17,291 nt of DNA, taken from IMG/VR virus record IMGVR_UViG_2541047683_000005; one strand, 5' to 3'. Shown piece by piece: positions 1-17,291 of this stretch. The stretch is from a virus. Lineage: Duplodnaviria > Heunggongvirae > Uroviricota > Caudoviricetes. Both the position numbers and the translations under genes were made by a program. Position 1 is the first letter of the stretch. Each line of letters starts with the position of its first letter. The notes under the pieces were generated by a model. That model was given only the letters and a program-made list of their open reading frames with translations. It was not told where the DNA came from and searched no databases.

Positions 1-2757
1 TCAGTTCCCCACCGCCTTTCCAAAATCCGGTGCTCTACGTGGCGCAATAGCACCCGGTTCCCACCAACTCGTTATGTCGAACTCCCGTTGCGCGCGGTCC
101 CTTACTCGATCATTGTAACCAGGGTTTGCCATCTCCTGAAGTTGTTGCAATATCAGGTGATTGGTTATCGCTTTCGCATACCACAGGTTTGCGAATGGAG
201 TGATCATGCGGGCTGTTTTCAGTGCATCGGCACCGAATGATGTTTCTTCACCCTGTAGAGCCTTCTGTGGGTTAGTAATCAGTAATTTTGTTAACTGCTC
301 TGCAAAGCTCAACACAGGGCCACCCATAGTGGCACCGATGCTGGAGCCATATTGCGTATGGTCCTGGAAAATAAAATCACCGTAGATACCGAACGAACCA
401 CCTTTCAGTAGAGCCTGAACCCATGTGGTTGGTTTTGTCATATCCAGCGGGTCATTACCATTTAACAAACTGTTCATCTGGATCGCAAACATACCAGCAA
501 GAGTTGTTCCCCCGATATATGAGGCCAGAAATTTAATGGCCGGAACGGTGTCCAAATCCCGTGTTCTGTTAACAAGTTGCCGAAATCCAGCAAATGGGGT
601 TGTTTTGAAGAGCATGAAGCTCTTCATTAACTCGCCAGCATCATCACGGGCATATGTATCAATACCCGTAGCGGTGGTCACAGCATTGGTCATCTCACCG
701 TGCGTAATTCCCAGCAATTTCTGGGCTGCTTCAGCGCGTGCATTACGAATCATGCGCGTGATGGTCTGCTCAGCCTCAGCGTCGAATGCTTCTTTCATCC
801 GTTTCAGGCGTTCTGGAGGGAGATCTCCAAGGGCTGCCAGTGCCTTTTCACTCCCGGCACGAATCCGGGCAATACGGTCTGCCATAATGTCGGCGATTAC
901 GTTATCGGGCACAGCGTAAATCGCGTCTGGCGTCATCCCCATATGCCCGGCAGTAGTCATCGGCCTGAGTTCTGCCGCTGCCATGATGGCCCAGTCCTCA
1001 TTGCTCCATCCCTTGTTAGCCAGAATGGTTTTATCGGTTCCTTTTATATCGTCCAGCGTCTTAAATTTTCTGGTCAGCTCGCCAATATTTTTGTACATCA
1101 GGAGACCAAACGACGCTTTGTTTGCGCGGTCCATAGCGATCAGCCCGGACCACTTCAGTGTCTTCTCTGCGAACCAGCCAGTTATGCCGCGAGACAAGTC
1201 AAACCCGCCCATTTTCGAAACCACAGCAGCATGTGAATCCACCAGCAGACCGAGTTCAGCATTCGCCTTTTTGGCATCTCCACTAAACAGGTTTTTGATA
1301 GTGTTAACGGAAAGCCGCATTCCACCACGGGTAAAGCCCAGCGCCTGCGCATTTGCCCGCATAATTGCCTGGTCGCTGGTTGCTGTCAGTACGCTGGTGC
1401 CAAGCATGGCGCTGGTCATCAGGTTACGCAGACCACCAACTGCTGAAGAGAACACACTCGATGAAGCGACACCATTTAGGCCAGCCATTGAGTTGAACAT
1501 ACGGGCAACTAATTTGGCCTCATCCTCCATTTCTTTTTTGCGTTTCCCGCCTGTTACTGCGCGCTTATAGATGCGATCCAGTACCAGGGAAAAGTTTCTT
1601 TCGGCGTCCGGACCAAAGGCTTTAACGACGCCCAAATCCCTGGATGATGATTGCAGGTGCGACATCATCACCCCCACCAGCGGCTGCTGAGTGTATCGCT
1701 CCATATAGGCGAAGTGTGACTGCGCATCCTTGAACGCCATCACCCTGTGCTGAGAACCACGGCTCTTTATTCCTCCGGCTCCCATAAATGTACCAGGCTC
1801 AATTTTGTTTGCCCCATCAGTGGCCTTCGTTTCAAAGATCGCTTCCAGTGCCTGACGGTACTCGACGTCATTCATAATGCTGCCGTCAGGATTAACGTAA
1901 TTGCTGCGATCCTGCGTGTTGTAAGCGTCATCAACCCATTTCTGGCGGGCAAACTCAATCGGTGGCTGGCGACCTGAAAGACGTGCTGTAGCTTGCTCTG
2001 CCACTGGTAACGATGCCAGCCATTCTTCGCGCCCGGCATTGCGAATAAGGTCAGCATCATCCACATATGGCGTATGCCAGTCTTCTCGCAGGCCTATGTC
2101 AAAGCCGTTGTCGTTCATCTCATGACGAACACGGCCTGTTACATCCTTCCAAATCTGTGCAATTTTCTTCGCCAGGGGATTACCGGTATCTTCGCCATAA
2201 ATTTCTTTCAGGATCTGGAGTTGTGCAGACTTTGCCGCCTGCCTGTCGAATACACTCCGAAACCGCTGCTCTCCAAGCGCCCTGCTCTGCTCGAAGAATT
2301 TGCGGACGTCATCACCTGCTTTTAGAAGTTCAGCACTGAGCTGACGGGACCAGTCCTGATATGCCCCAATTGCAAGCTCTTCAGCAGAAGTAACGGAGAT
2401 ATCAGCTTTGTCTCTCGATCGTCGGCCAGCAAAAATAAACTGCTGCAAATTAACAGGTGTCTGCTGATCAGGCGGGATGTTAGCATCGAGAGTGTCAGTA
2501 ATTTTACTGATGGCGATCGCATTCTGGGCAACACGCTGTCTTTTCTTGTACACATCATGAACCACACGCTGGCGTACCAGTTCTGCTGCATCCATGTATG
2601 TTTGAGCATCAGGAATACCACTTTTGCCTTCTTTTGCATTCTTTCTGTGCACATGCTGCACAGCTTCTTTGATACGATCTTCAATATTTTTCAGCTCATC
2701 AGCCTTTGGCTGGCGACCAAGTGTCTGCGCAATAGCTTCCACACATGCCTGTTTCAT
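1..2757 (-). CDS. Large hypothetical protein, 918 aa; candidate phage virion-internal/ejection-type protein (function unassigned)
   Basis: Uninterrupted minus-strand ORF ending with TGA at 3..1. The track ORF starts at 2778 but that codon is GTG (plus strand 2776-2778 is cac) with no nearby SD. The ATG at 2757 (MKQACVEAI...) has GAGGAA 6 nt upstream and overlaps the upstream stop as TAATG, so it is the preferred start. Protein is rich in A/G/S/T/N/Q with almost no Cys and has Gly/Ala/Ser-rich hydrophobic stretches (e.g. LAGLNGVASSSVFSSAVGG). No catalytic motif recognised. Confidence 0.65.
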   Translation of the reverse strand: MKQACVEAIAQTLGRQPKADELKNIEDRIKEAVQHVHRKNAKEGKSGIPDAQTYMDAAELVRQRVVHDVYKKRQRVAQNAIAISKITDTLDANIPPDQQTPVNLQQFIFAGRRSRDKADISVTSAEELAIGAYQDWSRQLSAELLKAGDDVRKFFEQSRALGEQRFRSVFDRQAAKSAQLQILKEIYGEDTGNPLAKKIAQIWKDVTGRVRHEMNDNGFDIGLREDWHTPYVDDADLIRNAGREEWLASLPVAEQATARLSGRQPPIEFARQKWVDDAYNTQDRSNYVNPDGSIMNDVEYRQALEAIFETKATDGANKIEPGTFMGAGGIKSRGSQHRVMAFKDAQSHFAYMERYTQQPLVGVMMSHLQSSSRDLGVVKAFGPDAERNFSLVLDRIYKRAVTGGKRKKEMEDEAKLVARMFNSMAGLNGVASSSVFSSAVGGLRNLMTSAMLGTSVLTATSDQAIMRANAQALGFTRGGMRLSVNTIKNLFSGDAKKANAELGLLVDSHAAVVSKMGGFDLSRGITGWFAEKTLKWSGLIAMDRANKASFGLLMYKNIGELTRKFKTLDDIKGTDKTILANKGWSNEDWAIMAAAELRPMTTAGHMGMTPDAIYAVPDNVIADIMADRIARIRAGSEKALAALGDLPPERLKRMKEAFDAEAEQTITRMIRNARAEAAQKLLGITHGEMTNAVTTATGIDTYARDDAGELMKSFMLFKTTPFAGFRQLVNRTRDLDTVPAIKFLASYIGGTTLAGMFAIQMNSLLNGNDPLDMTKPTTWVQALLKGGSFGIYGDFIFQDHTQYGSSIGATMGGPVLSFAEQLTKLLITNPQKALQGEETSFGADALKTARMITPFANLWYAKAITNHLILQQLQEMANPGYNDRVRDRAQREFDITSWWEPGAIAPRRAPDFGKAVGN

Positions 2758-4817
2758 TATGGGTTCCTCAAGAAGCACGCTGCCGCTACAGAATAAACCT
2801 TCGATTCGTTCTGGACTGTCTTAATCTGTTCATCCAGCTCAGCCAGGAGATCAGAAAGTTTTGTCGGGTTTCCGGTTTCCGGGTGAGCTATAGTCAGCTC
2901 AGGATTGGCAACAGCCATGTCCCTGGCAGCCATAAGGTCATAGCTGTTGGATGAGAGAACCTGCCCTGTATCTGGATCAACGCTGACGTCCCCTCTGTGT
3001 TCACCAGCCGATGAGAAAGCACTTTCAGCACGAGGGACAGGCGATTCACTAATTGGCTCTGATGATGTTTCATATCTGACACCATTTTCTTCAAAAACCT
3101 TTTGTATTTCATGGTATTGCTCTTGGTAAGTATCAGATATATCTGATCGCAATGGACCATCAAGCCCTCGCGCCATCCCCCCAACATTTACAGGCTGACC
3201 ATCATTAAGTTGCCTGTATGCTTCATCCATGGCGTCAACATGACTGTTGATGCTCTCATTGCTGGTGTGAAGCACTGGTGACGATTCAATATCGTAATGA
3301 AGCCCCTCATTCAAAATGTGGGCTGCATCAATATCGCTTGGTTTTATTCTTTCCCTCGCCCGGATACCAAAAACTTTTTCTACTGCGGCTTCCAGTTTCA
3401 TATTGCGAAGACGCATACTTACGAGTAACCGTAACTGCTCAGGTGTAACGGTTCCAACCTGAATACCACTGTATCTGAATATATAGGCTTTAAAACCTGA
3501 AATAATTTTTTCCCATGACGAAACGCTTGTCTTTAGAGATGGATTTACTGCATGTGCGGCAACTTCTTCAGCGTATAACCACTCAGGATATGTTTCAGGG
3601 TACTCACCCCTTTTCTTATATTCATAATATTGTGACATCCCATATGCAAATTCAGGATAGTCAGAATGCTTGTTTGCAGATTTAAGTACAGCATTAGCTA
3701 GCTTTCTGGCCTTCCAGTCAGGGTAATGGCGCTGCTCAAGATGAAGCGCCTCATGATGAAGGGTTTCTAACAGTTCTTCATGGTCTTTTAATCCATTAAT
3801 ATTTATTCTTATTATTGGTTCTTTTCCAGAAGCTACTGTCACATGACCTTTATTCAGAAGTATTTCTCCATCACTATTTTTTATTGCTGGTTCATTAATA
3901 AGTTCTATTACTCCTGAATCAGATAAATCACGAACCATTGACTCAATGTTACCATCAGGAGATTGCTGATAATGTTCACCAAAAGTTGATTTTATTTCTT
4001 CTGCAGAAATGTTCGACTCTGTACCATCATGGTTATTATGGGTAGTCAGGTGATGAACGCCACCAAAGACCCCGCCTAAAACGGCATCGACTAACATCGC
4101 CTGACCGTCAAATACCCGGTACTGTTTTGCCATCTCCGTGTAGCCTTTTTCCTCCAGTGTTGCACCGACAGAGTAACGGTTCAGTCCACCGAATCCGGTG
4201 TTGATTGCCACACCTGAGGCAATGCGCGTTGCCAGTGTGGTGCCGACGGCAGCGGGTAAGGCCATACCCACAGCATTGAAAAGGCTCTGCTGCGTTGCCA
4301 GGTTACGCGCCGTAGCCTCATCTACTCCCTTCCCTTTAAAATCCTGATAGGACTGCTCATACGTAGAACCGAAGGCTGTAGCAGCGCCGATGAGTGGGCC
4401 GCCAAACATAGTTGTTCCGATTGCAGGAACAAATTTACCAAGCTCATTTAATACCTCAGCCGCCATTCCCTGGCTGCCTGCATCAGGCTTCACATAGCTG
4501 CGGGCATCCTGTAACTGTTTTCCGATCGTGTCGTATGTATCATTCAGTGTTTTGTCAGCATCAGGGAACATCTCCCGAAAAATATTAACAGTCGGTGCCA
4601 CGTCTGCGGTAAATGCCGGATCGCTAATCAGGCGCTTGCTGAATCCGACGGCAGACTGCGCGAGACCGAGAGCCCCCTCCGCCACGCCGCTCAAAAGTGC
4701 AGTACCTGAACCCTGGAAGGGAGTCGGATCGTAGTCTTCTGGCCTTGCTGGGTTGGCAACTGTTTTGTCGTCAATCCATGCCTGACCTTCTGGAGCCAAA
4801 GAAAAAACATCAGACAT
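2757..4817 (-). CDS. Large hypothetical protein, 686 aa, with glycine-rich hydrophobic segments and an HExxH (HHEALH) zinc-metallopeptidase-like motif
   Basis: ATG at 4817 overlaps the upstream stop as TAATG; GAGGG lies 7 nt upstream. N-terminal third has glycine-zipper-like hydrophobic segments (GKFVPAIGTTMFGGPLIGAATAFG; LVDAVLGGVFGGV). HHEALH is encoded at 3741-3758, inside a visibly AT-richer patch (about 3400-4060). Confidence 0.65.
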   Translation of the reverse strand: MSDVFSLAPEGQAWIDDKTVANPARPEDYDPTPFQGSGTALLSGVAEGALGLAQSAVGFSKRLISDPAFTADVAPTVNIFREMFPDADKTLNDTYDTIGKQLQDARSYVKPDAGSQGMAAEVLNELGKFVPAIGTTMFGGPLIGAATAFGSTYEQSYQDFKGKGVDEATARNLATQQSLFNAVGMALPAAVGTTLATRIASGVAINTGFGGLNRYSVGATLEEKGYTEMAKQYRVFDGQAMLVDAVLGGVFGGVHHLTTHNNHDGTESNISAEEIKSTFGEHYQQSPDGNIESMVRDLSDSGVIELINEPAIKNSDGEILLNKGHVTVASGKEPIIRININGLKDHEELLETLHHEALHLEQRHYPDWKARKLANAVLKSANKHSDYPEFAYGMSQYYEYKKRGEYPETYPEWLYAEEVAAHAVNPSLKTSVSSWEKIISGFKAYIFRYSGIQVGTVTPEQLRLLVSMRLRNMKLEAAVEKVFGIRARERIKPSDIDAAHILNEGLHYDIESSPVLHTSNESINSHVDAMDEAYRQLNDGQPVNVGGMARGLDGPLRSDISDTYQEQYHEIQKVFEENGVRYETSSEPISESPVPRAESAFSSAGEHRGDVSVDPDTGQVLSSNSYDLMAARDMAVANPELTIAHPETGNPTKLSDLLAELDEQIKTVQNESKVYSVAAACFLRNP

Positions 4818-7348
4818 TATTCAACCCTCACGACAATAGCTTTATTGGTTCTGGGATCTGTTGCCCAGCGTCCGCTACCATTTACAAGCCGATACCGGTT
4901 ATTGCCGATATTAACTGGCGTGAAATTTGACACTGCATTTACGTTAAGTCCGGCATCTTTCAGTGCTTGTTTCGCAGATGTGGTATAGCGATCTTTGAAA
5001 GTAGATTTATCCATGCCGAAAGGCATTACAACGTCGCCGCCATTAAAACCATTGTATATACCGCCAGTAGCATACTTCACGGCATCAGCTACAATGTCTG
5101 TATCAGGCATACTGGTTCTTACCGTAGATGCATCACCAGATTGATAAGCTATTCCTGCATAAGCGGCTTTGAAAAGGCTATAACTGATCTGGCGTAACTG
5201 CGGGTTACGGGCAAATGCATTACCTACCTGTTCGTCGAAAGCGTCTTTCATCTTATCTTCGCTCGGCAACTGTACCGGAGTTATGCCCGCATTCTTCATG
5301 GCCTTCGTCGGATTCAGTAGTTGGTCGCCGGAAAGAATAACCTTTGCAACGTCGTACTTGTTCATCGTCGGCTTATACCCGATGAACTGACTATATGGGA
5401 TCGTCGGCTTGGTGTTGTCGTACTGGTTATCCGGCGTGCCCAGCAGCAGCGCAGAATAGGCTGTTGCCGCACTGTTCGGAGCAATTACAGATGCCACCTG
5501 CCGTATTGCTGGCGCAGGCAGCTTCTCCCCCATGCTCTGCAACAGTTTAATTGTCTGGTCAACGTTCTGAGTGCCGCGCACCTGCTGTGCCAGCGCAGCC
5601 GCCTCTTCACTGTTGAGGATTGGGGCATTAATTCCCAACGCGCGTAAGCTTTCCTGCGACGAGAAACGGTTAGCCACCTCGGCAGTGATGTCGTCAGGGT
5701 TGTTGCTGGTGATCGGCTTATAGGCTCCGATTTCCACCGCTGCACTAAACGGATTATTCTGCCTCTGGGTTATTACCTTCGTGGCTGCCGCCGATACCCG
5801 GTCGAATAACTCCGCACGAGACGCATACCCCTCCCCTGTTTCACCAGTATCCGGGCGCAATTGCTCAACATATGCGGTAATGCTGCTTGTCGGCATGTTG
5901 CGGAAAGAGCCTATATACTGTCCGGCGATCTGCAAATTTCTGAACTCGATATATCGCAGGTTTCCTTCTCTGACACCATAAGCTGCAATGAACTCATCCT
6001 CACCAGGTGGGTTAGGAAATTCAACGCCACGCATAAACGCAGCCGTCGCATCGCGAACCCTGCTATCGAGCATCGTTCTATATTCAGCCTGCTGCTGTCT
6101 GGCTAATGCATCCGTCTGTCGCAACACGCTGGCCTGATCTGATTCATTTAAAGCATCGAACCAGGCTACACCGGTATAACGTTTATTTTTTGTCGGTAGC
6201 TGAGAAAGCCCCAGTGCGGCACTAACACCTGCAGTTAACTGCTGATCACTGTATGGCTGGCTACCGTTTTCATGATGGATAATGGCTGCACAAAGCGCCT
6301 TCAGGGTATCAGGATTTGATGCATCGAGAGGCTCATCAGCAGAAACGCCAAGTTGTTCGCACACTGCTTTGATATACGACATAGTGTCATTTTTATCAGT
6401 AGGCGGTGCCCAGCGATTAATTATCTCGCTGACGGTATCAATACCCTGCCGCTGATACGACATCAGGTTCCGCCCTAATGCACGAATACCGTGTTCAGGG
6501 GTTTCGAATTTGGCAAAGCGACCATCATCACCAGTCTGCCCAACCCACGGATTAGTTTTGCTGTATTCAAGATTGCCGGGGTTATTGTTGCGTATACCGC
6601 GGGTACGATCGGAAGAGCCACTATCTGCTACAGCACGGCGAGATCCAGCAGCAGTATCGCTTAACTCGCCGTTTTGCTGTCTTACCTGAAGATAGTTTGC
6701 TCCAATAGCATTTTGAGCAGTTGCTTTTGCTGTTGCTTCTTTAAACTCGATTTTCTTGGCCTGGATTTGCTCGTCGCTCCAGCCATGCGCAATACCGTAA
6801 TCCTCAATTTGCTGGAAAGTTTGCGTATTAGCCAATATGTATGCTGCGTTGTCGCCATATAATGCTGCGGCATTTTTACCATTATTCAGCAGTGTCGCCT
6901 GAAACTGGCCTTCTTCGTAGGCATTTATTTGCCCTATCTCGTACCTCCCGGCCTGCGTAGTGAACTGAATGCGCTGCTGCTGCGCCTGCTGCATGAAAGC
7001 ATTACGAGCCTGTTCATCCGGCAGCGACATAGCCAGTTGTTCGACCTGAGCATCAAACTGCTGTGTATACTCATGGCCTTTTCCAATAGCATTTTTCCCT
7101 TTCAGATTAAGCAATCCTGTTTCAGGATTATTCAGCAGATCACTGCCTGTCTGACTGAGTTTAAGGGATGCCTCCTGAACCAAGGCAATATTGGCGCGCT
7201 GTTTTGCCTGACCAAGAACATCAATTGCCTCTGTCCCTGCCCGAACAAAAGCATCACCAATACCTGGCTGAGAAAACGTCTGCAAGCCTGCTGACTGAAC
7301 TCCACGGCTCTCAACCTGACGTCCGGATACTGTTGGTACGACTGGCAT
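4817..7348 (-). CDS. Large hypothetical protein, 843 aa; candidate phage virion-internal protein (function unassigned)
   Basis: ATG at 7348 with GGGGG 6 nt upstream; stop overlaps the next gene start (TAATG at 4815-4819). Gln/Ala/Asn-rich N-terminus typical of phage structural proteins. Conserved-looking segment RNNNPGNLEYSKTNPWVGQ...RWAPPTDKNDT at about aa 251-330 (nt about 6239-6598). Confidence 0.65.
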   Translation of the reverse strand: MPVVPTVSGRQVESRGVQSAGLQTFSQPGIGDAFVRAGTEAIDVLGQAKQRANIALVQEASLKLSQTGSDLLNNPETGLLNLKGKNAIGKGHEYTQQFDAQVEQLAMSLPDEQARNAFMQQAQQQRIQFTTQAGRYEIGQINAYEEGQFQATLLNNGKNAAALYGDNAAYILANTQTFQQIEDYGIAHGWSDEQIQAKKIEFKEATAKATAQNAIGANYLQVRQQNGELSDTAAGSRRAVADSGSSDRTRGIRNNNPGNLEYSKTNPWVGQTGDDGRFAKFETPEHGIRALGRNLMSYQRQGIDTVSEIINRWAPPTDKNDTMSYIKAVCEQLGVSADEPLDASNPDTLKALCAAIIHHENGSQPYSDQQLTAGVSAALGLSQLPTKNKRYTGVAWFDALNESDQASVLRQTDALARQQQAEYRTMLDSRVRDATAAFMRGVEFPNPPGEDEFIAAYGVREGNLRYIEFRNLQIAGQYIGSFRNMPTSSITAYVEQLRPDTGETGEGYASRAELFDRVSAAATKVITQRQNNPFSAAVEIGAYKPITSNNPDDITAEVANRFSSQESLRALGINAPILNSEEAAALAQQVRGTQNVDQTIKLLQSMGEKLPAPAIRQVASVIAPNSAATAYSALLLGTPDNQYDNTKPTIPYSQFIGYKPTMNKYDVAKVILSGDQLLNPTKAMKNAGITPVQLPSEDKMKDAFDEQVGNAFARNPQLRQISYSLFKAAYAGIAYQSGDASTVRTSMPDTDIVADAVKYATGGIYNGFNGGDVVMPFGMDKSTFKDRYTTSAKQALKDAGLNVNAVSNFTPVNIGNNRYRLVNGSGRWATDPRTNKAIVVRVE

Positions 7349-12012: not shown

Positions 12013-12270
12013 TTATTTCCCGGTATGGGGTTCTTCTTTATATTTATGGGCTAACAAATCTGGTAATTGCCTGTATTTATCCTCGGCAATATATTCAGAA
12101 TAATCGACAGCACTGTTCAGTATATCTAACGCCGTTTCATGCTCCAGATTCGAAACTATAAGGAACGTTGCTACTTTTAGCATATTCGCGATATGCAAAA
12201 GAGCATCAATTTCATTTTTTGGCGCTTCGCTGAATTTTTGCTCCAGAAGAATAAATCGTTCATCACGCAT
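12013..12270 (-). CDS. Small hypothetical protein, 85 aa
   Basis: ATG at 12270 with strong SD AGGAGGA 6 nt upstream; overlaps the upstream ORF stop by 8 nt. Acidic, helical-looking protein with no recognised domain. Confidence 0.55.
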   Translation of the reverse strand: MRDERFILLEQKFSEAPKNEIDALLHIANMLKVATFLIVSNLEHETALDILNSAVDYSEYIAEDKYRQLPDLLAHKYKEEPHTGK

Positions 12271-13231
12271 AGTGTTCCTCCTGACGGATGCGGGCAGTAA
12301 ATACCATCACGCAGCCAGCCGGGGATTGCTGACGGGCTTCCTGTTCGCTGGTGGCCTCGATGTGGATTACGCGCGGTTGTGCCGTACTCAGGGCGATAAA
12401 ACGCCAGATAAAATTGTTTTCGCATTTCTGAATAAACAGCGTGTTTTCTTCGCGCCCTTTCCATGTTGCCGAGATATAGCCCATGTCATTGAGCATCTCG
12501 CAGGCATCAACCAGCGTATCAGCGGCTACGTGTACAGTGTTTTTACCGTCAGCTATGCAATCACGGTGCACCGCCAGGAAGGTGTATATAAATTTAGGGT
12601 GAGTTTGGGTATGCTGTGTTCCAGCCATAATCGTTACCTCGTTTAACGGTTTGGTTAGACGCCCTGCATGTGTTGCGAGCACTGCGGGGCGTTGCTCTTT
12701 CAGGTGTATTTCACCTTTGCTTTTTAATTTACTCACTGGTGAAATACACTTCAAGCCTTTTTTTATCATTTTTTTTGCGTATACTGACATACACCAATTT
12801 TTAGGAGATCCAGAAATGGCAACTGGTGCAAAGAACGCAAAATCACAAATGACAACTGTCAGAATCCCACATGAAGTAATGGATGATATTGAGCAACTTA
12901 AAGAACCTGGCGAAAGTACCGCTGGTTTTTTAGTTACTGCCGCAAAAGGCGAGATCAAACGCCGCCAGCGCCGCAAGGCCAAAGAACAGGAATAGCCCAC
13001 CAGCAAGCCAGCACATTCACCATAATGACCCTCGGTTAAAGCTAGGGTCATTACCTCGTCGTTATCCAGAACTGAAACGGCATCAGTAACATTGCTGATT
13101 TCCAGCGCAGCACACACATCAGCGCCAACAAACCACGGCTCGCCGTTGATACTCACTATGCGCACCTGAATGTCATCGAATTTAATGACAGAGATTTCAG
13201 TGCGCCCGGCATAAAAGACAGGTTTACGCAT
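12263..13231 (-). CDS. Bro-N domain protein ORF (322-aa open frame; probably composite, true 3' extent uncertain)
   Basis: ATG at 13231 with GGAGGTGA 6 nt upstream, 2 nt after the antirepressor stop. N-terminal ~70 aa match the Bro-N pattern (INGEPWFVGADVCAALEISN...LDNDE). The middle of the frame is Cys/Ser-rich and looks non-coding: it is antisense to a plus-strand RHH gene and runs through an AT-rich promoter-like region. The last 122 aa have their own SD (GAGGT) and ATG at 12628 and may be a separate gene, 12263..12628. Confidence 0.45.
   Translation of the reverse strand: MRKPVFYAGRTEISVIKFDDIQVRIVSINGEPWFVGADVCAALEISNVTDAVSVLDNDEVMTLALTEGHYGECAGLLVGYSCSLALRRWRRLISPFAAVTKKPAVLSPGSLSCSISSITSCGILTVVICDFAFFAPVAISGSPKNWCMSVYAKKMIKKGLKCISPVSKLKSKGEIHLKEQRPAVLATHAGRLTKPLNEVTIMAGTQHTQTHPKFIYTFLAVHRDCIADGKNTVHVAADTLVDACEMLNDMGYISATWKGREENTLFIQKCENNFIWRFIALSTAQPRVIHIEATSEQEARQQSPAGCVMVFTARIRQEEHYA
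12703..12750. promoter_or_regulatory. Inverted repeat (candidate operator) in the RHH-gene upstream region
   Basis: GGTGTATTTCACC (12703-12715) and GGTGAAATACAC (12738-12749) form a 12/13-bp inverted repeat with a 22-bp spacer, followed by T-runs and a TATACT -10-like hexamer (12780-12785) upstream of the RHH gene SD/ATG. Confidence 0.4.
12816..12995 (+). CDS. Small ribbon-helix-helix (Arc/Mnt/CopG-like) DNA-binding protein, 59 aa
   Basis: ATG at 12816 with SD AGGAGA 7 nt upstream. Protein MATGAKNAKSQMTTVRIPHEVMDDIEQL... has a beta-strand-like TVRIPHEV followed by two helical segments and a basic tail (KRRQRRKAKEQE). Only convincing plus-strand gene; antisense to the long Bro-N frame. Confidence 0.5.
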   Translation: MATGAKNAKSQMTTVRIPHEVMDDIEQLKEPGESTAGFLVTAAKGEIKRRQRRKAKEQE

Positions 13232-13991: not shown

Positions 13992-14682
13992 GTTTCACCC
14001 CCAGAGACGGCGCTGACGTTATCAGGCTGGCGAACGTCTCCATGCGGCGGGCAACCTCCCGCACCGCTTCGGTCGGTGCCATGCCGTTCTGTATCGCTTC
14101 GTGAAATGCTGCCTGCTCGATTTTCTGCATGACCACCAGCAAACCTAACTGCTGATCGCTGGCTGCCTGGCGTTCACCTGTTACCAATCCGGCAAAACGG
14201 TTTTCTGTGCGTGCCAGATTGATGTAGTGGTGACGTTCTGCACCCAGTGCTTTAAGTCCCTCACGGCTTTCGTGATAGCCCGGCAGATATTCGCGGCGTA
14301 CGGGTTCAGCGGCGCGACGCTTTGCAAATGCCTTTGTAACATCCAGCTTGAAGCGGTTCATGCGTTCATCATCACGACCGCGCACAATGCGACACATGTA
14401 ATCAAACTGATCGCTATTCAGGAGGGCAAACTTATGTTCACGCTCCCCGTTTTGACGGGTTTTTAATCGCTCCGTTTGAAACGGAAGGATGCCCAGTTCA
14501 CGCAATCCGGTTTTGTGCTTCTGAATGAGCGAATAAAGGTTTTTGTGCTTTATGCCAATACGCTCAGCAAATAAGCGGGAATCAATGCGCGACTCTGCTT
14601 TGTGGCGAATCAATATATCGCTCTGGCTGGCTTCAGGCTGAACGAAGCCCTGCCCCTGTACGGGCATATATGGACGGTTCAT
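13984..14682 (-). CDS. Putative phage regulatory protein (Rha-like)
   Basis: 232 aa. Segment DSRLFAERIGIKHKNLYSLIQKH...FALLNSDQFDYM resembles the Rha-family pattern (SR-IAE-GK-H-NVLR-I ... Y-L-D). ATG at 14682 with AGGAG 7 nt upstream. Assignment is moderate. Confidence 0.5.
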   Translation of the reverse strand: MNRPYMPVQGQGFVQPEASQSDILIRHKAESRIDSRLFAERIGIKHKNLYSLIQKHKTGLRELGILPFQTERLKTRQNGEREHKFALLNSDQFDYMCRIVRGRDDERMNRFKLDVTKAFAKRRAAEPVRREYLPGYHESREGLKALGAERHHYINLARTENRFAGLVTGERQAASDQQLGLLVVMQKIEQAAFHEAIQNGMAPTEAVREVARRMETFASLITSAPSLGVKHA

Positions 14683-14758
14683 TGAAAACTCCTGCTGTCG
14701 AATTAAGTTACTTTTATTTGCTAGTGGATAGCTTGGGCAATAACCCGTTGCTATTTAA

Positions 14759-14956
14759 TCAAGCAGCCGTTCCGCGTGATTCGGCAATACGCTGATTGAT
14801 CCATTCGTCAATTTCACTTTCAACGAAAGCAATCGCTCGCGAGCCAATTTTAACTGATGCAGGAAATTTACCTTGCCCCATAAGGCGATAAATCCATGCC
14901 TTGCTATATCCAGTTCTACGCTGAACTTCTGTTAAACGAATAAGCGTATTTGACAT
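14759..14956 (-). CDS. alpA: AlpA-family transcriptional regulator (prophage CP4-57-type regulatory protein)
   Basis: 65 aa. MSNTLIRLTEVQRRTGYSKAWIYRLMGQGKFPASVKIGSRAIAFVESEIDEWINQR matches the AlpA helix-turn-helix and the conserved E-IDEW-xQR C-terminus. ATG at 14956 with GAGGT upstream. Confidence 0.9.
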   Translation of the reverse strand: MSNTLIRLTEVQRRTGYSKAWIYRLMGQGKFPASVKIGSRAIAFVESEIDEWINQRIAESRGTAA

Positions 14957-15026
14957 CTATTTACCTCATAACGTCTACTCAATTTGACGAGGTAATCATG
15001 GCACAGAAATAACGAATATTTTCATA

Positions 15027-15135
15027 CCCTCAGGCCTAATGGTTACCGGAAGGAAATTAACCCTAAGGGTGATGGTAAAATTGACGGAGAAGATAAAAAA
15101 ACACCCTCAGGGTAACAGTAAATCACCCTCAGGGT
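15027..15135. promoter_or_regulatory. Array of helically phased palindromic sites (ACCCTnAGGGT) upstream of alpA
   Basis: Palindromes ACCCTAAGGGT (15060-15070), ACCCTCAGGGT (15103-15113) and ACCCTCAGGGT (15125-15135), plus a half-site-like ACCCTCAGG (15027-15035). Start-to-start spacing is 33, 43 and 22 bp, roughly multiples of one helical turn. Lies in the 194-bp intergenic region between the 265-aa gene stop and the alpA start. Confidence 0.6.
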
Positions 15136-15150
15136 ATGCGGTATGGTGCG

Positions 15151-15948
15151 TTAATCCGGCTTTGCGTTCTTTTGGCTGTTGTCTCGGTTAATAGGGCAGG
15201 CAGTCCTCTCTATGAGCGTTGCAAGAGCATTACTTGCCCCCCACTGCTTAAGCTCCCTGGTTATCGCTTCTTGATTTCCCCTGGTGGCAAAATCATTTTC
15301 TGGATCGTAATTGGCCCACTCTCTGTTTCTAATCTCAATAGCCTTAGCTAATGGGTCTTTATCCCAGTATTTATATAAGTGTATCGGGCGCTCTTGCTCT
15401 AACTGCTCTATCCTTGCCCTTAACTCTGCGTTTTCTTTTTCCAGCCTTGCGATTTGGGATAATAAATCATCCTCTGTACGCAACTCTTTCTTTTCAATAT
15501 CGCGTCCTTGTGCCTCGTCATTTTCAGAAGAGTTAGCGCCTTCCAGCTTCGTTAACGCGTCAAGGACATCGGGAAAAATTGCGAAAATTTCACCCCTTAT
15601 AAATCCAATGTTCTCAAATTCGGGATCTTCCCAATAACCGGACACCAGAAAACCATTTTCATCCCTCTCACCAGGTAAACAACCACGTTTCCGAACCGCA
15701 TTCAGATTTCTATAAAGAACATCATAATCAAATTCATCCCGATACGGGTTACAAAAAGATTCCAACAGCTTAAATTCATTTACTGTGTACAGGCGGATAT
15801 GTTCTCCGCTTATTCTCCTGAGTATCCAAGTTATGACATCTGAAACATCATAATCATCACCAGCGACCTTAAGCACGACCTCAAGAAATTCACGTAAAGA
15901 AATAAAATCTTTTTTGTATTCGTTTAATTCGGCATGAATATCAATCAT
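15151..15948 (-). CDS. Hypothetical protein, 265 aa, with central coiled-coil segment; AT-rich orphan gene between int and alpA
   Basis: The track ORF starts at 15954 but that codon is GTG directly abutting GAGGT. The ATG at 15948 has GAGGT 6 nt upstream and is the preferred start. Contains a heptad-like segment LLSQIARLEKENAELRARIEQLEQE. The gene is visibly more AT-rich than its neighbours. No enzymatic motif recognised. Confidence 0.6.
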   Translation of the reverse strand: MIDIHAELNEYKKDFISLREFLEVVLKVAGDDYDVSDVITWILRRISGEHIRLYTVNEFKLLESFCNPYRDEFDYDVLYRNLNAVRKRGCLPGERDENGFLVSGYWEDPEFENIGFIRGEIFAIFPDVLDALTKLEGANSSENDEAQGRDIEKKELRTEDDLLSQIARLEKENAELRARIEQLEQERPIHLYKYWDKDPLAKAIEIRNREWANYDPENDFATRGNQEAITRELKQWGASNALATLIERTACPINRDNSQKNAKPD

Positions 15949-16076
15949 ACGCACACCTCAGCGTCCTCTACTGTAGTGGCTGTACCAGTCCGTCGAGGTG
16001 TACGGATTTTCGGGAGCGATCCTAGACACAGCCTTTTCTTTCGTCGCTCAAAGTCTACTACTGTATACGCAACCAG

Positions 16077-17291
16077 TCATCCACATTTTCCGAACTTGCC
16101 ATGCACCACGTTACCGCCATGTTCGAGCGAATCCATATAGTCGGCGTACCACTGGAGCATCTCGCGCCGCCCGTCCAGATATTGCGCATGATTGTACGTG
16201 CCACGAATTGAGTTCTTATCAACGTGTGCAAGCTGCGTTTCTATCCACGCGGTGTTATAGCCCTGCTCATGTAAAATCGTGCTCATCGTGTGCCGGAACC
16301 CATGACCAGTAACGCGCCCAGAATAGCCAATACGACGAATAAGCACGTTCATCGCCATTTCACTCATCGGCTTACTGTGCTGGATTCGACCAGGGAAAAT
16401 AAACTGATACTGCCCCGTCATGTGTTTTAACTGTTCCAGAATAGCGATCGCCTGTTCTGAAAGCGGCACACAATGAGGACGGCGCATCTTCATGCGTTCT
16501 TTCGGCACTTCCCACAGACGATTATCAAAATCAATCTCCTGCCACTCTGCCTGTCGTAATTCCCCTGGACGGAGTCCTGTCAGAATCAATAATCGCATAC
16601 CCAGCTTGACGATCTGGCTTCCGGTGTACGTATTAAAAACGCGGAAAAATTCCGGCAGTTCGTCGGCCTTCAAATAGGCGTAATGCTCTTTTTTGTGTGG
16701 AGCAAATGCGCTTGCCAGATCTGGTGCGGGGTTATATTCAGCGCGTCCGGTGATGATTGCGTACCGGAACACCTCGCCGCATCGCTGGCGAACCTTACGC
16801 AATTTTTCGGTCGCCCCACGGTCATTAAGACGGGAGAGAACCGCGAGCAACTCCATTGGCTTAATTTCTGCGATCGGCCTGCCGCCAATGTACGGAAAGA
16901 CGTCTTTTTCAAACGTCTCGATCATTTCCTCGGCGTATGACGATGACCACCTGTCGATCCGCTTTTCGTACCATTCGCGAGCGATACCCTCAAAAGTATT
17001 GCCAAATTTGCTAGCCTGTTCTCGCTTTTGGGCTTTTCTGACCTCACTTGGATTTATACCACCAGCAAGAAGCCTTTTAGCCTCATCCCTTGCCGCCCTG
17101 GCATCAGACAGAGACACATCAGGGTACACACCCAACGACAACATTTTGGGCTTTCCTGCAAACCTGTAGCGCAGTCGCCACCCTTTCGAACCGTTCGGCT
17201 CAATGAGCAACGAAAGCCCGTTACCGTCATTGAGTGTATAAGCCTTTTCTTTCGGCTTCGCGCGCCTGATGGCAAGGTCTGAAAGCAGCAT
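16077..17291 (-). CDS. int: Tyrosine recombinase, P4-family phage integrase
   Basis: 404 aa with ATG exactly at the window edge. N-terminus (AIRRAKPKEKAYTLNDGNGLSLLIEPNGSKGWRLRYRF) is the integrase arm-binding domain typical of P4-like integrases. C-terminal catalytic signatures are present: LRPGE (Arg), HGFRHT (His-x-x-Arg) and RGTYNHAQY (Tyr nucleophile). Confidence 0.9.
   Translation of the reverse strand: MLLSDLAIRRAKPKEKAYTLNDGNGLSLLIEPNGSKGWRLRYRFAGKPKMLSLGVYPDVSLSDARAARDEAKRLLAGGINPSEVRKAQKREQASKFGNTFEGIAREWYEKRIDRWSSSYAEEMIETFEKDVFPYIGGRPIAEIKPMELLAVLSRLNDRGATEKLRKVRQRCGEVFRYAIITGRAEYNPAPDLASAFAPHKKEHYAYLKADELPEFFRVFNTYTGSQIVKLGMRLLILTGLRPGELRQAEWQEIDFDNRLWEVPKERMKMRRPHCVPLSEQAIAILEQLKHMTGQYQFIFPGRIQHSKPMSEMAMNVLIRRIGYSGRVTGHGFRHTMSTILHEQGYNTAWIETQLAHVDKNSIRGTYNHAQYLDGRREMLQWYADYMDSLEHGGNVVHGKFGKCG

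What the first reader, a model, noticed from the sequence alone, without database searches (positions are those of the whole stretch)
15151..15948. AT-rich orphan gene with coiled-coil segment between integrase and alpA
The 265-aa ORF is conspicuously AT-richer than the flanking int and alpA genes, has no recognisable catalytic motif and carries a leucine-zipper-like heptad segment. The slot between int and alpA is a variable position in CP4-57-like islands. This looks like recently acquired cargo and is a candidate accessory (defence, anti-defence or regulatory) protein.
Basis: partly seen in the sequence, partly recalled or inferred. Interest (0 to 1): 0.5.

Follow-up and report, generated by a model that had tools for sequence, protein, structure and literature searches.

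The report
Modular zipper protein upstream of alpA
The gene is real, but it is not an orphan or random cargo: it belongs to an uncharacterised protein family that always sits between the integrase and the master activator alpA of one subgroup of phage-satellite islands, flanked by its own conserved RNA leader and DNA repeats, so it is most likely a regulator of when the island switches on.

Summary
The 265-aa ORF (15151-15948, minus strand) is real. It has a good Shine-Dalgarno site and a four-heptad leucine zipper (Leu at d, Asn173 at a). It matches nothing in Pfam, PHROGs, PADLOC, NCBIfam or the PDB. It is AT-richer than int (41.6% vs 51.1% GC) but not than alpA (43.4%).

It is not an orphan. 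Its last ~70 residues form a conserved domain found in 113 protein clusters, from Enterobacterales, Pasteurellaceae and a betaproteobacterium. The domain is always C-terminal, preceded by a coiled coil and an unrelated, hypervariable N-terminal region.

In about 60 loci the order int, this gene, alpA is invariant. The gene is embedded in conserved cis-elements:
- Rfam RF02996 ("int-alpA RNA") is its 5' leader. One leader loop (CACCUC) is complementary to the gene's own ribosome-binding site.
- Three to six copies of an 11-bp palindrome (ACCCTnAGGGT) fill the spacer to alpA. The palindrome type tracks the C-domain type.

Islands without the gene (EcCICFT073, EcCIMP1, one sharing this tRNA-Gly site) lack both elements.

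Best reading (confidence 0.4): a dimeric regulator of alpA with a variable sensor domain, functionally analogous to SaPI Stl but unrelated to it. No experiment exists, and the C-domain fold matches no known DNA-binding fold.

The parts
16077..17291 (-). Tyrosine integrase (404 aa). The island is integrated at tRNA-Gly next to actS in E. coli E1.
   Evidence: Pfam Arm-DNA-bind_3, Phage_int_M and Phage_integrase. Annotated context in NZ_CP115821.
15965..16032 (-). Rfam RF02996 'int-alpA RNA', a three-way-junction leader ending 17 nt before the ATG of the gene. The loop of hairpin 2, CACCUC (16000-15995), is complementary to the gene's SD GAGGUG (15959-15954).
   Evidence: cmscan 41.4 bits against a gathering score of 35.8. 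The same motif ends 16-17 nt before the family ORF in 9 other loci. My own model finds it in 39 places and in none of the islands without the gene. Covariation: 14 pairs changed on both sides, 95% of cells paired, 0 of 500 shuffles as good. The loop-SD helix is 92% paired but almost invariant.
15544..15948 (-). Gene X, N-terminal region (aa 1-135). It is hypervariable, acidic (net -11) and alpha/beta, with a weak winged-helix-like resemblance. The last ~35 residues (W..F..GF..EI..FP) stay with the zipper part in naturally split forms.
15481..15543 (-). Gene X, acidic linker predicted to be disordered (aa 136-156).
   Evidence: pLDDT below 50 at aa 140-156. Net charge -4.
15391..15480 (-). Gene X, leucine zipper (aa 157-186). 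Positions d are L162/L169/L176/L183 and positions a are I166/N173/I180. There is no basic region before it.
   Evidence: Heptad register. Single helix 159-186 at pLDDT above 90. Sub-threshold bZIP_2 and DivIC hits.
15184..15390 (-). Gene X, conserved C-terminal domain (aa 187-255), a small bundle of four short helices. Motif: ERPIxL..Y.DDPL.LAI.IRN.EW.NYDP.ND..TRGNQ.AI..EL..G.S...A.AIE.VACPI.R. W211, P252 and R255 are invariant family-wide.
15151..15183 (-). Gene X, variable C-terminal tail (aa 256-265) and stop codon.
15026..15135 (.). Array of four 11-bp palindromes ACCCTnAGGGT at 15135-15125, 15113-15103 and 15070-15060, plus a degenerate GGCCTGAGGGT at 15036-15026. Spacing is 22, 43 and 34 bp.
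   Evidence: These are the only three perfect matches in the 17.3-kb window (0.31 expected). At up to 1 mismatch there are 137 matches in 9.9 kb of X-alpA spacers from 47 unique loci, against 4 in 450 kb elsewhere and 0 in the islands without X. Copy number varies by 22- and 33-bp indels among near-identical loci. Motif type follows C-domain type.
15095..15135 (-). Terminator-like element directly after gene X. As RNA, palindrome copies 1 and 2 pair into a long hairpin followed by U7.
   Evidence: Terminator scan. RNA fold with z = -3.6.
14962..14994 (-). Inverted repeat UACCUCGU-N17-AUGAGGUA just before alpA. Its 3' arm contains the alpA SD (GAGG, 14967-14964).
   Evidence: Sequence. A 7-bp stem is conserved in 14 loci, but with one-sided changes only, so RNA support is weak.
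14759..14956 (-). alpA (65 aa), of the family that acts as master activator in the Gram-negative PICIs tested experimentally (EcCICFT073, EcCIMP1).
   Evidence: Pfam Phage_AlpA E 2.4e-19. Role taken from PMC6092414 and PMC11773190.

Best explanation
Gene X encodes a dimeric regulator that belongs to the integration/regulation cassette of one subgroup of Gram-negative phage-satellite islands (PICI-like; this one is at tRNA-Gly).

Shown:
- It is one member of a modular family: a hypervariable N-terminal part, a short parallel-dimer-type leucine zipper, and a conserved ~70-aa C-terminal domain.
- It always lies between int and alpA on the same strand.
- The covarying RNA structure RF02996 is its leader.
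- It is followed by an array of 11-bp palindromes that exists only where this family exists and whose sequence type follows the C-domain type.

Inferred:
- int and X are co-transcribed in the quiescent island.
- X translation is throttled by pairing of the leader loop CACCUC with the SD GAGGUG.
- The zipper holds two C-domains side by side, so that they read the two abutting 5-bp half-sites of each palindrome. They would do so on DNA, or less likely on the RNA hairpins that the palindromes form.
- This sets the expression of alpA, the master activator immediately downstream.
- The acidic, hypervariable N-domain is shuffled independently of both int and alpA. It is the input module and binds a helper-phage or host protein.
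- My guess at direction is about 60:40 for repression released by the helper. That is the logic of SaPI Stl, reached with an unrelated protein.
For: Family and architecture:
- 43 homologues, all enterobacterial, 34-99% identical.
- A C-domain profile finds 113 cluster representatives among 1.84 billion proteins, with the domain always at the C-terminus.
- N-domain identity falls to 10-30% while the C-domain stays at 46-70%. P0031 vs P0021 shows 26% in the N-domain and 97% in the C-domain, which indicates domain shuffling.
- Short forms consist of zipper + C-domain only (P0044, P0045). Split two-ORF forms also exist.
- The zipper has Asn at an a position. From established knowledge of GCN4-type zippers, this favours parallel dimers.

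Synteny:
- The order int, X, alpA on one strand holds in ~60 loci, including loci where int is only 35-66% identical.
- An AlpA-like gene again follows X in a distant AT-rich lineage (L071).

Cis-elements tied to X:
- RF02996 ends 16-17 nt before the start codon in every lineage tested and is absent from islands without X.
- Covariation supports its nested helices.
- The palindromes are about 1,500-fold enriched in the X-alpA spacer.

Binder assignment by exclusion:
- L009 and L010 have Int 95-96% identical to this one but no such palindrome anywhere in the locus.
- L009 and L010 have nearly identical AlpA. Only L010, which has a distant X-like gene, carries a repeat array, and it is a different one (AATAGTRCCCACC, 4 copies).
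- Salmonella-type loci have AlpA only 34-43% identical but a C-domain 47-54% identical, and they keep a near-identical palindrome (ACCGTGAGGGT).
- The ENDRLALAIQARK/APKAE C-domain type goes with RCTATCATAGY.

N-domain independent of its neighbours:
- One alpA allele (100% identical) is found with X alleles of 100%, 62% and 35% identity and with int types of 98% and 66% identity (L014, L023, L033, L034).

Expression logic:
- No sigma-70-like site on the minus strand anywhere in 14600-16300, so none between int and X.
- A terminator-like hairpin plus U7 lies right after X.

Literature:
- The literature leaves room for such a factor. Fillol-Salom et al. [quoted passage not shown]
Against: - No experiment bears on this protein.
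- Pfam at E up to 10 gives only noise. The PDB sequence profile search gives nothing.
- The C-domain is charge-neutral (+1) and the whole protein is strongly acidic (about -18).
- Residues at the start of the last helix vary between alleles that share the same palindrome. If that helix reads the bases, this is unexpected.
- The C-domain coding region, the palindromes and alpA are physically adjacent. Their co-variation could reflect linkage within one recombining cassette rather than recognition.
- The palindromes can also pair with each other as RNA (terminator-like).
- The experimentally studied islands EcCICFT073 and EcCIMP1 have no X. Both are helper-induced through alpA (PMC6092414, PMC11773190). 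X is therefore not needed for AlpA-based induction in general.
- The direction of control (repression or activation) is a guess.
Confidence: 0.4

Rival explanations
1. Accessory conflict protein. X would be an anti-phage, anti-helper or anti-defence factor. Its variable N-domain would recognise phage proteins, and its conserved C-domain would be an effector or adaptor. Its position next to alpA would only reflect a convenient insertion hotspot.
For: - The N-domain is hypervariable and shuffled, as expected under an arms race.
- The slot is variable among islands.
- The region is AT-rich.
- One of 83 family members has a weak match to Effector-associated domain 9.
- Satellites are known carriers of defence genes (PMC10085698, listed).
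Against: - There is no PADLOC hit and no catalytic-looking motif in a 70-aa helical C-domain.
- Position and orientation are strictly conserved, with a dedicated leader RNA and downstream repeat array over ~60 loci and several genera. Cargo does not usually bring its own conserved flanking cis-elements that abut the master regulator.
- Short forms lack any N-domain.
- The island's cargo-like genes lie at the other end (window 1-7348).
Confidence: 0.2
2. X is a protein-protein or RNA-level regulator that does not bind DNA. Either it is an anti-activator or chaperone that sequesters AlpA (or modulates Int) through the conserved C-domain, or it is an RNA-binding antiterminator acting on the palindromic hairpins. 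In this reading the palindromes are primarily transcription terminator/attenuator structures.
For: - The protein is acidic and the C-domain has no DNA-binding fold.
- Palindrome copies 1+2 and 3+4 pair as RNA. The first pair is followed by U7 (z = -3.6).
- Both X and alpA have their SD inside potential RNA pairings.
- Related satellites use RNA-based immunity: C4/isrK RNAs were found in sister loci. P4 CI RNA is discussed in PMC10111431.
Against: - C-domain divergence does not follow AlpA divergence. L010 has AlpA 68% identical but a C-domain ~25% identical; Salmonella-type loci have AlpA 34-43% but a C-domain 47-54% identical.
- It does not follow Int divergence either.
- The U-run after copy 2 is not conserved in many lineages.
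- Copies keep a 5-1-5 palindrome architecture and roughly 11-bp-multiple spacing, with copy-number changes of 22 and 33 bp. That is more typical of protein sites on one DNA face.
- The central base is not complementary between paired copies.
Confidence: 0.2
3. X is a decaying or functionless ORF that persists by hitch-hiking between int and alpA.
For: - Split two-ORF versions occur in some species.
- PGAP calls it 'hypothetical' in most genomes.
Against: - The full-length frame is kept in 138 E. coli genomes at >=99% identity.
- The C-domain is conserved across families of bacteria, with invariant W, P and R.
- Models are confident.
- The split forms recur as intact pairs in several genera and as separate cluster representatives (P0046, P0068, P0075, P0078).
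Confidence: 0.03

Closest known systems
SaPI Stl / Gram-positive PICI master repressor Rpr
   Same: - Encoded next to int and co-directional with it, at the boundary with the induction genes.
- One conserved part plus one highly variable part that differs between islands.
- The proposed logic is the same: keep the island silent until a helper-phage protein binds. This is inference. The Stl role is as summarised in PMC6092414.
   Different: - No sequence or fold relationship.
- No HTH detected.
- The variable part is N-terminal here.
- X is co-directional with the genes it would control, not divergent from them.
- It would act on an activator gene (alpA) rather than directly on the lytic operon.
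- Not all Gram-negative PICIs have it.
Eukaryote-type bZIP transcription factors (the PGAP product name in strains E1 and GPEC1366)
   Same: - A four-heptad leucine zipper with Asn at an a position.
- The candidate target is a compact palindrome with abutting half-sites.
   Different: - There is no basic region. The 21 residues before the zipper are acidic (net -4) and predicted to be disordered.
- The Pfam bZIP_2 score is 16.7, below the cut-off of 22.3, and covers the zipper only.
- Any nucleic-acid-reading module would lie C-terminal to the zipper. The name is a coiled-coil artefact.
Rfam RF02996 int-alpA RNA (typed by Rfam as 'Gene; sRNA')
   Same: The element at 15965-16032 is a bona fide member: it scores above the gathering threshold and its helices covary.
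   Different: - In every locus examined it is not simply 'between int and alpA'. It lies immediately 5' of the X-family ORF at a fixed distance of 16-17 nt.
- It carries an anti-SD loop.
- It therefore looks like a cis-acting translational leader of X rather than a free-standing sRNA.
- I could not read the original description; the supplements are not held.
YfjH, the gene in the int-alpA slot of E. coli K-12 CP4-57
   Same: It occupies the same slot between intA and alpA.
   Different: - It is on the opposite strand.
- It has no similarity to the zipper + C-domain region of X (hhalign probability 0.1%).
Characterised Gram-negative PICIs EcCICFT073 and EcCIMP1
   Same: The island type is the same: int, alpA, Bro/AntA/Rha zone, Icd-like gene, primase, SSB and PerC, all in one direction.
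   Different: - Their int-alpA spacers (365 and 427 bp) hold no X, no RF02996 and no ACCCTnAGGGT palindromes.
- EcCICFT073 has six 10-bp direct repeats there instead.

Membership tests
bZIP transcription factor (Pfam bZIP_1 / bZIP_2) | Heptad leucine zipper | tested here: met
   Leu at d positions 162/169/176/183; I, N, I at a positions.
bZIP transcription factor (Pfam bZIP_1 / bZIP_2) | Basic DNA-contacting region immediately N-terminal to the zipper | tested here: not met
   aa 136-156 have net charge -4 with no Lys/Arg cluster, and pLDDT is below 50.
bZIP transcription factor (Pfam bZIP_1 / bZIP_2) | Score above the Pfam gathering threshold | tested here: not met
   bZIP_2 scores 16.7 bits against a cut-off of 22.3, over the zipper only.
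PICI master repressor (Stl/Rpr) | HTH (XRE-type) DNA-binding domain | tested here: not met
PICI master repressor (Stl/Rpr) | Encoded beside int, co-directional with int, at the boundary to the induction genes | tested here: met
   The order int, X, alpA on one strand holds in ~60 loci.
PICI master repressor (Stl/Rpr) | Transcribed divergently from the genes it represses | tested here: not met
   X and alpA are on the same strand.
PICI master repressor (Stl/Rpr) | Binds operators and is released by a specific helper-phage protein | not testable with these tools
   Only indirect evidence: palindromes that track the C-domain type and a hypervariable N-domain.
Gram-negative PICI-type satellite (the host element) | int + alpA + primase all in one direction, integrated at a tRNA, with no virion or lysis genes | tested here: met
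   Pfam hits on the window ORFs. Annotation of the identical island in E. coli E1 at tRNA-Gly. Helper dependence was not tested.
Rfam RF02996 int-alpA RNA (flanking element) | Covariance-model score above the gathering threshold, with supported helices | tested here: met
   41.4 bits against 35.8. 14 pairs with compensatory changes; 0 of 500 shuffles as good.
Known anti-phage defence systems (PADLOC-DB 2.0) | Match to any defence-protein model | tested here: not met
   0 families at E up to 1.
X family as defined here (variable N-region + zipper + C-domain ending in ACPIxR) | C-terminal domain with invariant W, P and R and the motif AIExVACPIxR, preceded by a coiled coil and located just upstream of an alpA-like gene | tested here: met

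The most novel reading that the evidence does not exclude
X would be the missing repressor/sensor of a large subgroup of Gram-negative phage satellites. It would be a zipper-tethered dimer whose C-domain is a previously undescribed sequence-specific DNA-binding fold. That fold would read 11-bp palindromic operators in front of alpA. Its hypervariable N-domain would be the receptor for helper-phage inducer proteins, and its own synthesis would be set by the RF02996 leader, which would then be a cis-acting translational control element rather than an sRNA. That would be convergent evolution of the SaPI Stl strategy with entirely different parts.
Probability: 0.25. Interest if true: 0.75.

Novelty: new variant of a known kind. 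Interest (0 to 1): 0.55.

Why it matters
How Gram-negative PICI-type satellites sense their helper phage is an open question. AlpA is known to be the activator, but no repressor or inducer has been identified (PMC6092414).

This work defines a compact, testable cassette present in 2.7% of complete E. coli genomes and in several other genera. It consists of:
- a structured leader,
- a modular zipper protein,
- a palindrome array,
- alpA.

It gives the orphan Rfam motif RF02996 a concrete genetic context: it is the leader of this gene. It also corrects a misleading database name ('bZIP transcription factor').

If the protein gates alpA, swapping its N-domain should re-target helper specificity. 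That would be useful for engineered PICI delivery vehicles. If it does not, the result is still a new conserved protein domain with an unknown fold match.

Tried and rejected
Domain and structure searches on the protein:
- Pfam, PHROGs, PADLOC and NCBIfam gave coiled-coil noise only.
- PDB sequence-profile searches with the full and the C-domain profiles gave coiled-coil hits or nothing.
- Foldseek against the PDB on the full model had no hit with E < 2.
- The afdb50 library was unavailable.
- Pfam at E up to 10 on ten C-domains gave only HTH_20 at E 0.14 and Myb_DNA-bind_5 at E 0.033, which is not evidence.
- Pfam on 83 family members, to name the N-domains, found nothing recurrent.

Candidate relatives that turned out not to be:
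- I checked whether EcCIMP1_002, the published gene between int and alpA, is a homologue. It is not: that spacer has no X-like ORF.
- I checked whether YfjH is related. It is not.

Other dead ends:
- The species-representative genome scan returned only 2 loci.
- The original description of RF02996 was not held.
- The alpA leader hairpin has a conserved stem but no compensatory changes, so RNA-level function is unproven.
- Considered and rejected: the palindromes as integrase arm sites. They lie about 1.1 kb or more from the int-proximal island end and are absent from islands with 95-96% identical Int.
- Considered and rejected: GTG 15954 as the start codon, because it overlaps the SD.
Full report
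**1. The observation**

The ORF is there. It runs on the minus strand from ATG 15948 to the stop at 15151-15153 and encodes 265 aa.
- The ORF finder's GTG at 15954 is not the start. It lies inside the Shine-Dalgarno sequence GAGGUG (15959-15954), which sits 7 nt before the ATG.
- All homologues begin at the same Met.
- int (16077-17291; Arm-DNA-bind_3, Phage_int_M, Phage_integrase) and alpA (14759-14956; Phage_AlpA, E 2.4e-19) flank it on the same strand.

Composition:

| Region | GC |
|---|---|
| Gene X | 41.6% |
| X N-terminal part | 38.3% |
| int | 51.1% |
| Whole window | 49.4% |
| alpA | 43.4% (GC3 30%) |
| X-alpA spacer | 41.8% |

X falls in the 2.7th percentile of 798-bp windows. The claim 'AT-richer than int' holds; 'AT-richer than alpA' does not. 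The AT-rich unit is X + spacer + alpA.

The heptad segment is real. Positions d are L162/L169/L176/L183 and positions a are I166/N173/I180. An Asn at a is the classic signature of a parallel dimeric zipper (established knowledge of GCN4-type zippers).

Nothing else is recognisable. Pfam, PHROGs, PADLOC and NCBIfam return only sub-threshold coiled-coil matches.

**2. Not an orphan**

The identical sequence sits in E. coli E1 in an ~18-kb island at tRNA-Gly beside actS. From the tRNA end the island carries:
- int, X, alpA
- Rha-like and AntA genes
- an Icd-like gene, a DUF4222 gene, a DUF927 primase, SSB, ProQ/FinO, PerC
- three very large hypothetical proteins

148 of 5,426 complete E. coli genomes match the 901-base query spanning the gene, always on the chromosome; 138 of them at >=99% identity.

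A protein search finds 43 relatives, 34-99% identical. Those that carry a source name are from E. coli, Salmonella, Citrobacter and Yersinia.

The alignment shows three parts:
- The last ~70 residues are strongly conserved: ERPIxL..Y.DDPL.LAI.IRN.EW.NYDP.ND..TRGNQ.AI..EL..G.S...A.AIE.VACPI.R.
- The zipper is moderately conserved.
- The first ~135 residues are hypervariable, at 10-76% identity against 46-96% for the C-domain.

P0031 and P0021 share 97% of the C-domain but only 26% of the N-domain, so domains are shuffled.

A profile of the C-domain alone, run against 1.84 billion representative proteins, finds 113 clusters. The domain is always at the C-terminus, behind N-terminal regions of 0 to ~450 residues.
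- Some members are just zipper + C-domain (P0044, P0045).
- In Kluyvera and Yersinia the first ~106 residues are a separate ORF.
- Named members come from Providencia, Pasteurella, Glaesserella and Vogesella, all as 'hypothetical protein'.
- None of 83 members has a recurrent Pfam domain.
- There is no homologue in 50,697 deposited phage genomes.

**3. Structure**

The full-length AlphaFold2 model (pLDDT 74) gives four segments:
- a confident alpha/beta N-domain,
- a disordered acidic linker (aa 140-156),
- one long helix (aa 159-186),
- a small helical C-domain.

Net charges are -11 (N-domain), -4 (linker), -4 (zipper) and +1 (C-domain).

There is no basic region before the zipper. PGAP's name 'bZIP transcription factor' is therefore a coiled-coil artefact.

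**4. Context is the informative part**

In ~60 loci from IMG/VR, genomes and metagenomes the order int, X, alpA on one strand is invariant. This holds even where int is only 35-66% identical. In a distant AT-rich lineage the next gene is again AlpA-like.

Two conserved cis-elements bracket X.

(a) The leader, Rfam RF02996 'int-alpA RNA'.
- It matches 15965-16032 at 41.4 bits against a gathering score of 35.8.
- In nine other loci the motif ends 16-17 nt before the start codon of the X-family ORF.
- A covariance model built here finds it in 39 places and in none of the islands that lack X.
- Its nested helices are supported by 14 pairs with compensatory changes, and 0 of 500 shuffles do as well.
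- The loop of its second hairpin, CACCUC (16000-15995), is the exact complement of the X Shine-Dalgarno GAGGUG. That pairing is kept in 92% of cells but hardly varies, so it is conserved complementarity and not proven covariation.
- RF02996 is thus, in practice, the leader of this gene.

(b) The palindrome array in the 194-bp spacer to alpA.
- It holds four copies of ACCCTnAGGGT (15135-15125, 15113-15103, 15070-15060, and a degenerate copy at 15036-15026).
- These are the only three perfect matches in the window, where 0.31 are expected.
- Over 47 unique loci the motif (up to 1 mismatch) occurs 137 times in 9.9 kb of X-alpA spacer and 4 times in 450 kb of flanking DNA.
- Copy number changes by 22- and 33-bp indels among otherwise near-identical islands.

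**5. Who goes with the palindromes?**

- Not Int. L009 and L010 share the tRNA-Gly site and a 95-96% identical Int, but have no such palindrome.
- Probably not AlpA.
  - L009 and L010 have nearly identical AlpA proteins.
  - L009 has no gene in the slot and no repeats.
  - L010 has a 234-aa protein with a distantly related C-domain (hhalign 93%, E 3e-7) and a different four-copy repeat, AATAGTRCCCACC.
  - Salmonella-type loci have AlpA only 34-43% identical but a C-domain 47-54% identical, and they keep ACCGTGAGGGT/ACCCTCACGGT.
  - The ENDRLALAIQARK/APKAE C-domain type goes with RCTATCATAGY placed right after the stop codon.
- The palindrome type therefore follows the C-domain type.

A caveat applies. 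These elements are adjacent on the DNA, so linkage within one recombining cassette could mimic this pattern. The cassette does move as a unit. In ST361 and related strains the last ~240 bp of int + X + alpA are 96-99.7% identical to the window, while the rest of int differs.

**6. The N-domain follows neither neighbour**

One alpA allele (100% identical) occurs with X alleles of 100%, 62% and 35% identity, and with int types of 98% and 66% identity (L014, L023, L033, L034). Its partner is therefore likely to lie outside the cassette.

**7. Expression logic**

- No sigma-70-like site was found on the minus strand anywhere in 14600-16300, so none between int and X or before alpA.
- Directly after X, palindrome copies 1 and 2 can pair as RNA into a long hairpin followed by U7. 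Copies 3 and 4 pair likewise (z = -3.6).
- Just before alpA, an inverted repeat (14994-14962) contains the alpA SD. Its stem is conserved in 14 loci, but without compensatory changes.

**8. Comparison with what is known**

The published work covers these points:
- AlpA activates the cycle and its own promoter.
- A helper phage induces alpA by an unknown route.
[quoted passage not shown] - I found no paper on this protein.

The two experimentally studied islands, EcCICFT073 and EcCIMP1, have no X, no RF02996 and no palindromes. X is therefore an optional cassette of a subgroup, not a universal part. CP4-57 has yfjH in the slot, on the other strand and unrelated.

**9. Interpretation**

Best-supported reading (confidence 0.4):
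- X is a dimeric regulator acting on the palindrome array in front of alpA.
- The zipper places two C-domains on abutting 5-bp half-sites.
- The variable acidic N-domain is the sensor.
- X is made together with int in the quiescent island, and the leader limits its translation.
- Functionally this resembles SaPI Stl, but X is not a member of that family. It has no HTH, it is co-directional with its presumed target, and its variable end is the N-terminal one.

Against this reading:
- no DNA-binding fold;
- a neutral C-domain in a very acidic protein;
- variable residues in the last helix among alleles that share a palindrome;
- possible RNA roles for the palindromes;
- linkage as an alternative explanation of the co-variation;
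- no experiments.

Rivals:
- a conflict or cargo protein (0.2);
- a regulator that works on protein or RNA rather than DNA (0.2);
- a decaying ORF (0.03).

**10. Verdict**

The interpretation 'recently acquired cargo' is not. The gene is a positionally fixed, modular member of an uncharacterised satellite-specific family with dedicated cis-elements. I rate it a new variant of a known kind (a satellite regulatory module), of moderate to good interest, and directly testable.

Noticed in passing
window 15965-16032 (-): Rfam RF02996 'int-alpA RNA' (typed sRNA) is in every locus examined the 5' leader of the X-family ORF, ending 16-17 nt before its start codon. Its hairpin loop CACCUC is complementary to that gene's SD GAGGUG. 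It looks cis-regulatory rather than a free sRNA.
   Followed up: yes
window 15026-15135: Array of 11-bp palindromes ACCCTnAGGGT between X and alpA. Copy number (3-6) varies by 22- and 33-bp indels among near-identical E. coli islands. The motif is about 1,500-fold enriched in this spacer across 47 loci.
   Followed up: yes
window 14962-14994 (-): A conserved inverted repeat immediately upstream of alpA whose 3' arm holds the alpA Shine-Dalgarno sequence. The stem is conserved in 14 loci but shows no compensatory changes, so it could be an RNA hairpin or a DNA site.
   Followed up: partly
window 1-7348 (-): Three consecutive very large ORFs (more than 925, 686 and 843 aa; a 104-aa ORF follows in strain E1) lie at the far end of the island. 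None has any Pfam or PADLOC match. This is the cargo-like end of the satellite and a candidate novel defence or accessory operon.
   Followed up: partly
window 12263-13231 (-) and surroundings: The 322-aa 'Bro-N' ORF found here spans a region that PGAP annotates in the identical E1 island as separate small features: an Icd-like gene, a YlcI/YnfO gene on the other strand, and a 'transporter' fragment. Sister islands carry C4 antisense and isrK RNAs (P4 CI-type immunity RNA) in this zone, but the window has none at the Rfam gathering threshold.
   Followed up: no
L077 9187-9246 (E. coli CFT073, EcCICFT073 int-alpA spacer): The model island EcCICFT073 has no X cassette. Instead it has six tandem 10-bp direct repeats (RAACAACNNG) right after int. 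This is a different, apparently undescribed cis-element in the same slot.
   Followed up: no
L010 3982-4934 (E. coli OkiPb01705, same tRNA-Gly site): The slot holds a 234-aa protein (WP_001123241) with a different N-terminal region (the motif SITQAALLLAGIDP, which is common in the wider family) and a distantly related C-domain. It is followed by four copies of a different repeat, AATAGTRCCCACC.
   Followed up: partly
L002 730-818, 1589-1677, 2426-2513 (metagenome contig ERZ12593090): Three RF02996-like leaders precede different small genes: two 67-aa Endonuclea_NS_2 ORFs, each followed by a 118-126-aa ORF, and a 99-aa ORF just before the X homologue. The leader therefore appears to be a portable control element.
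   Followed up: no
window 14632-16313 vs E. coli ST361, 55989 and others: The last ~240 bp of int + X + alpA are 96-99.7% identical in strains whose integrase is otherwise different and which lack the Rha-like gene. The regulatory cassette therefore recombines between islands, with a breakpoint inside the conserved 3' end of int.
   Followed up: partly
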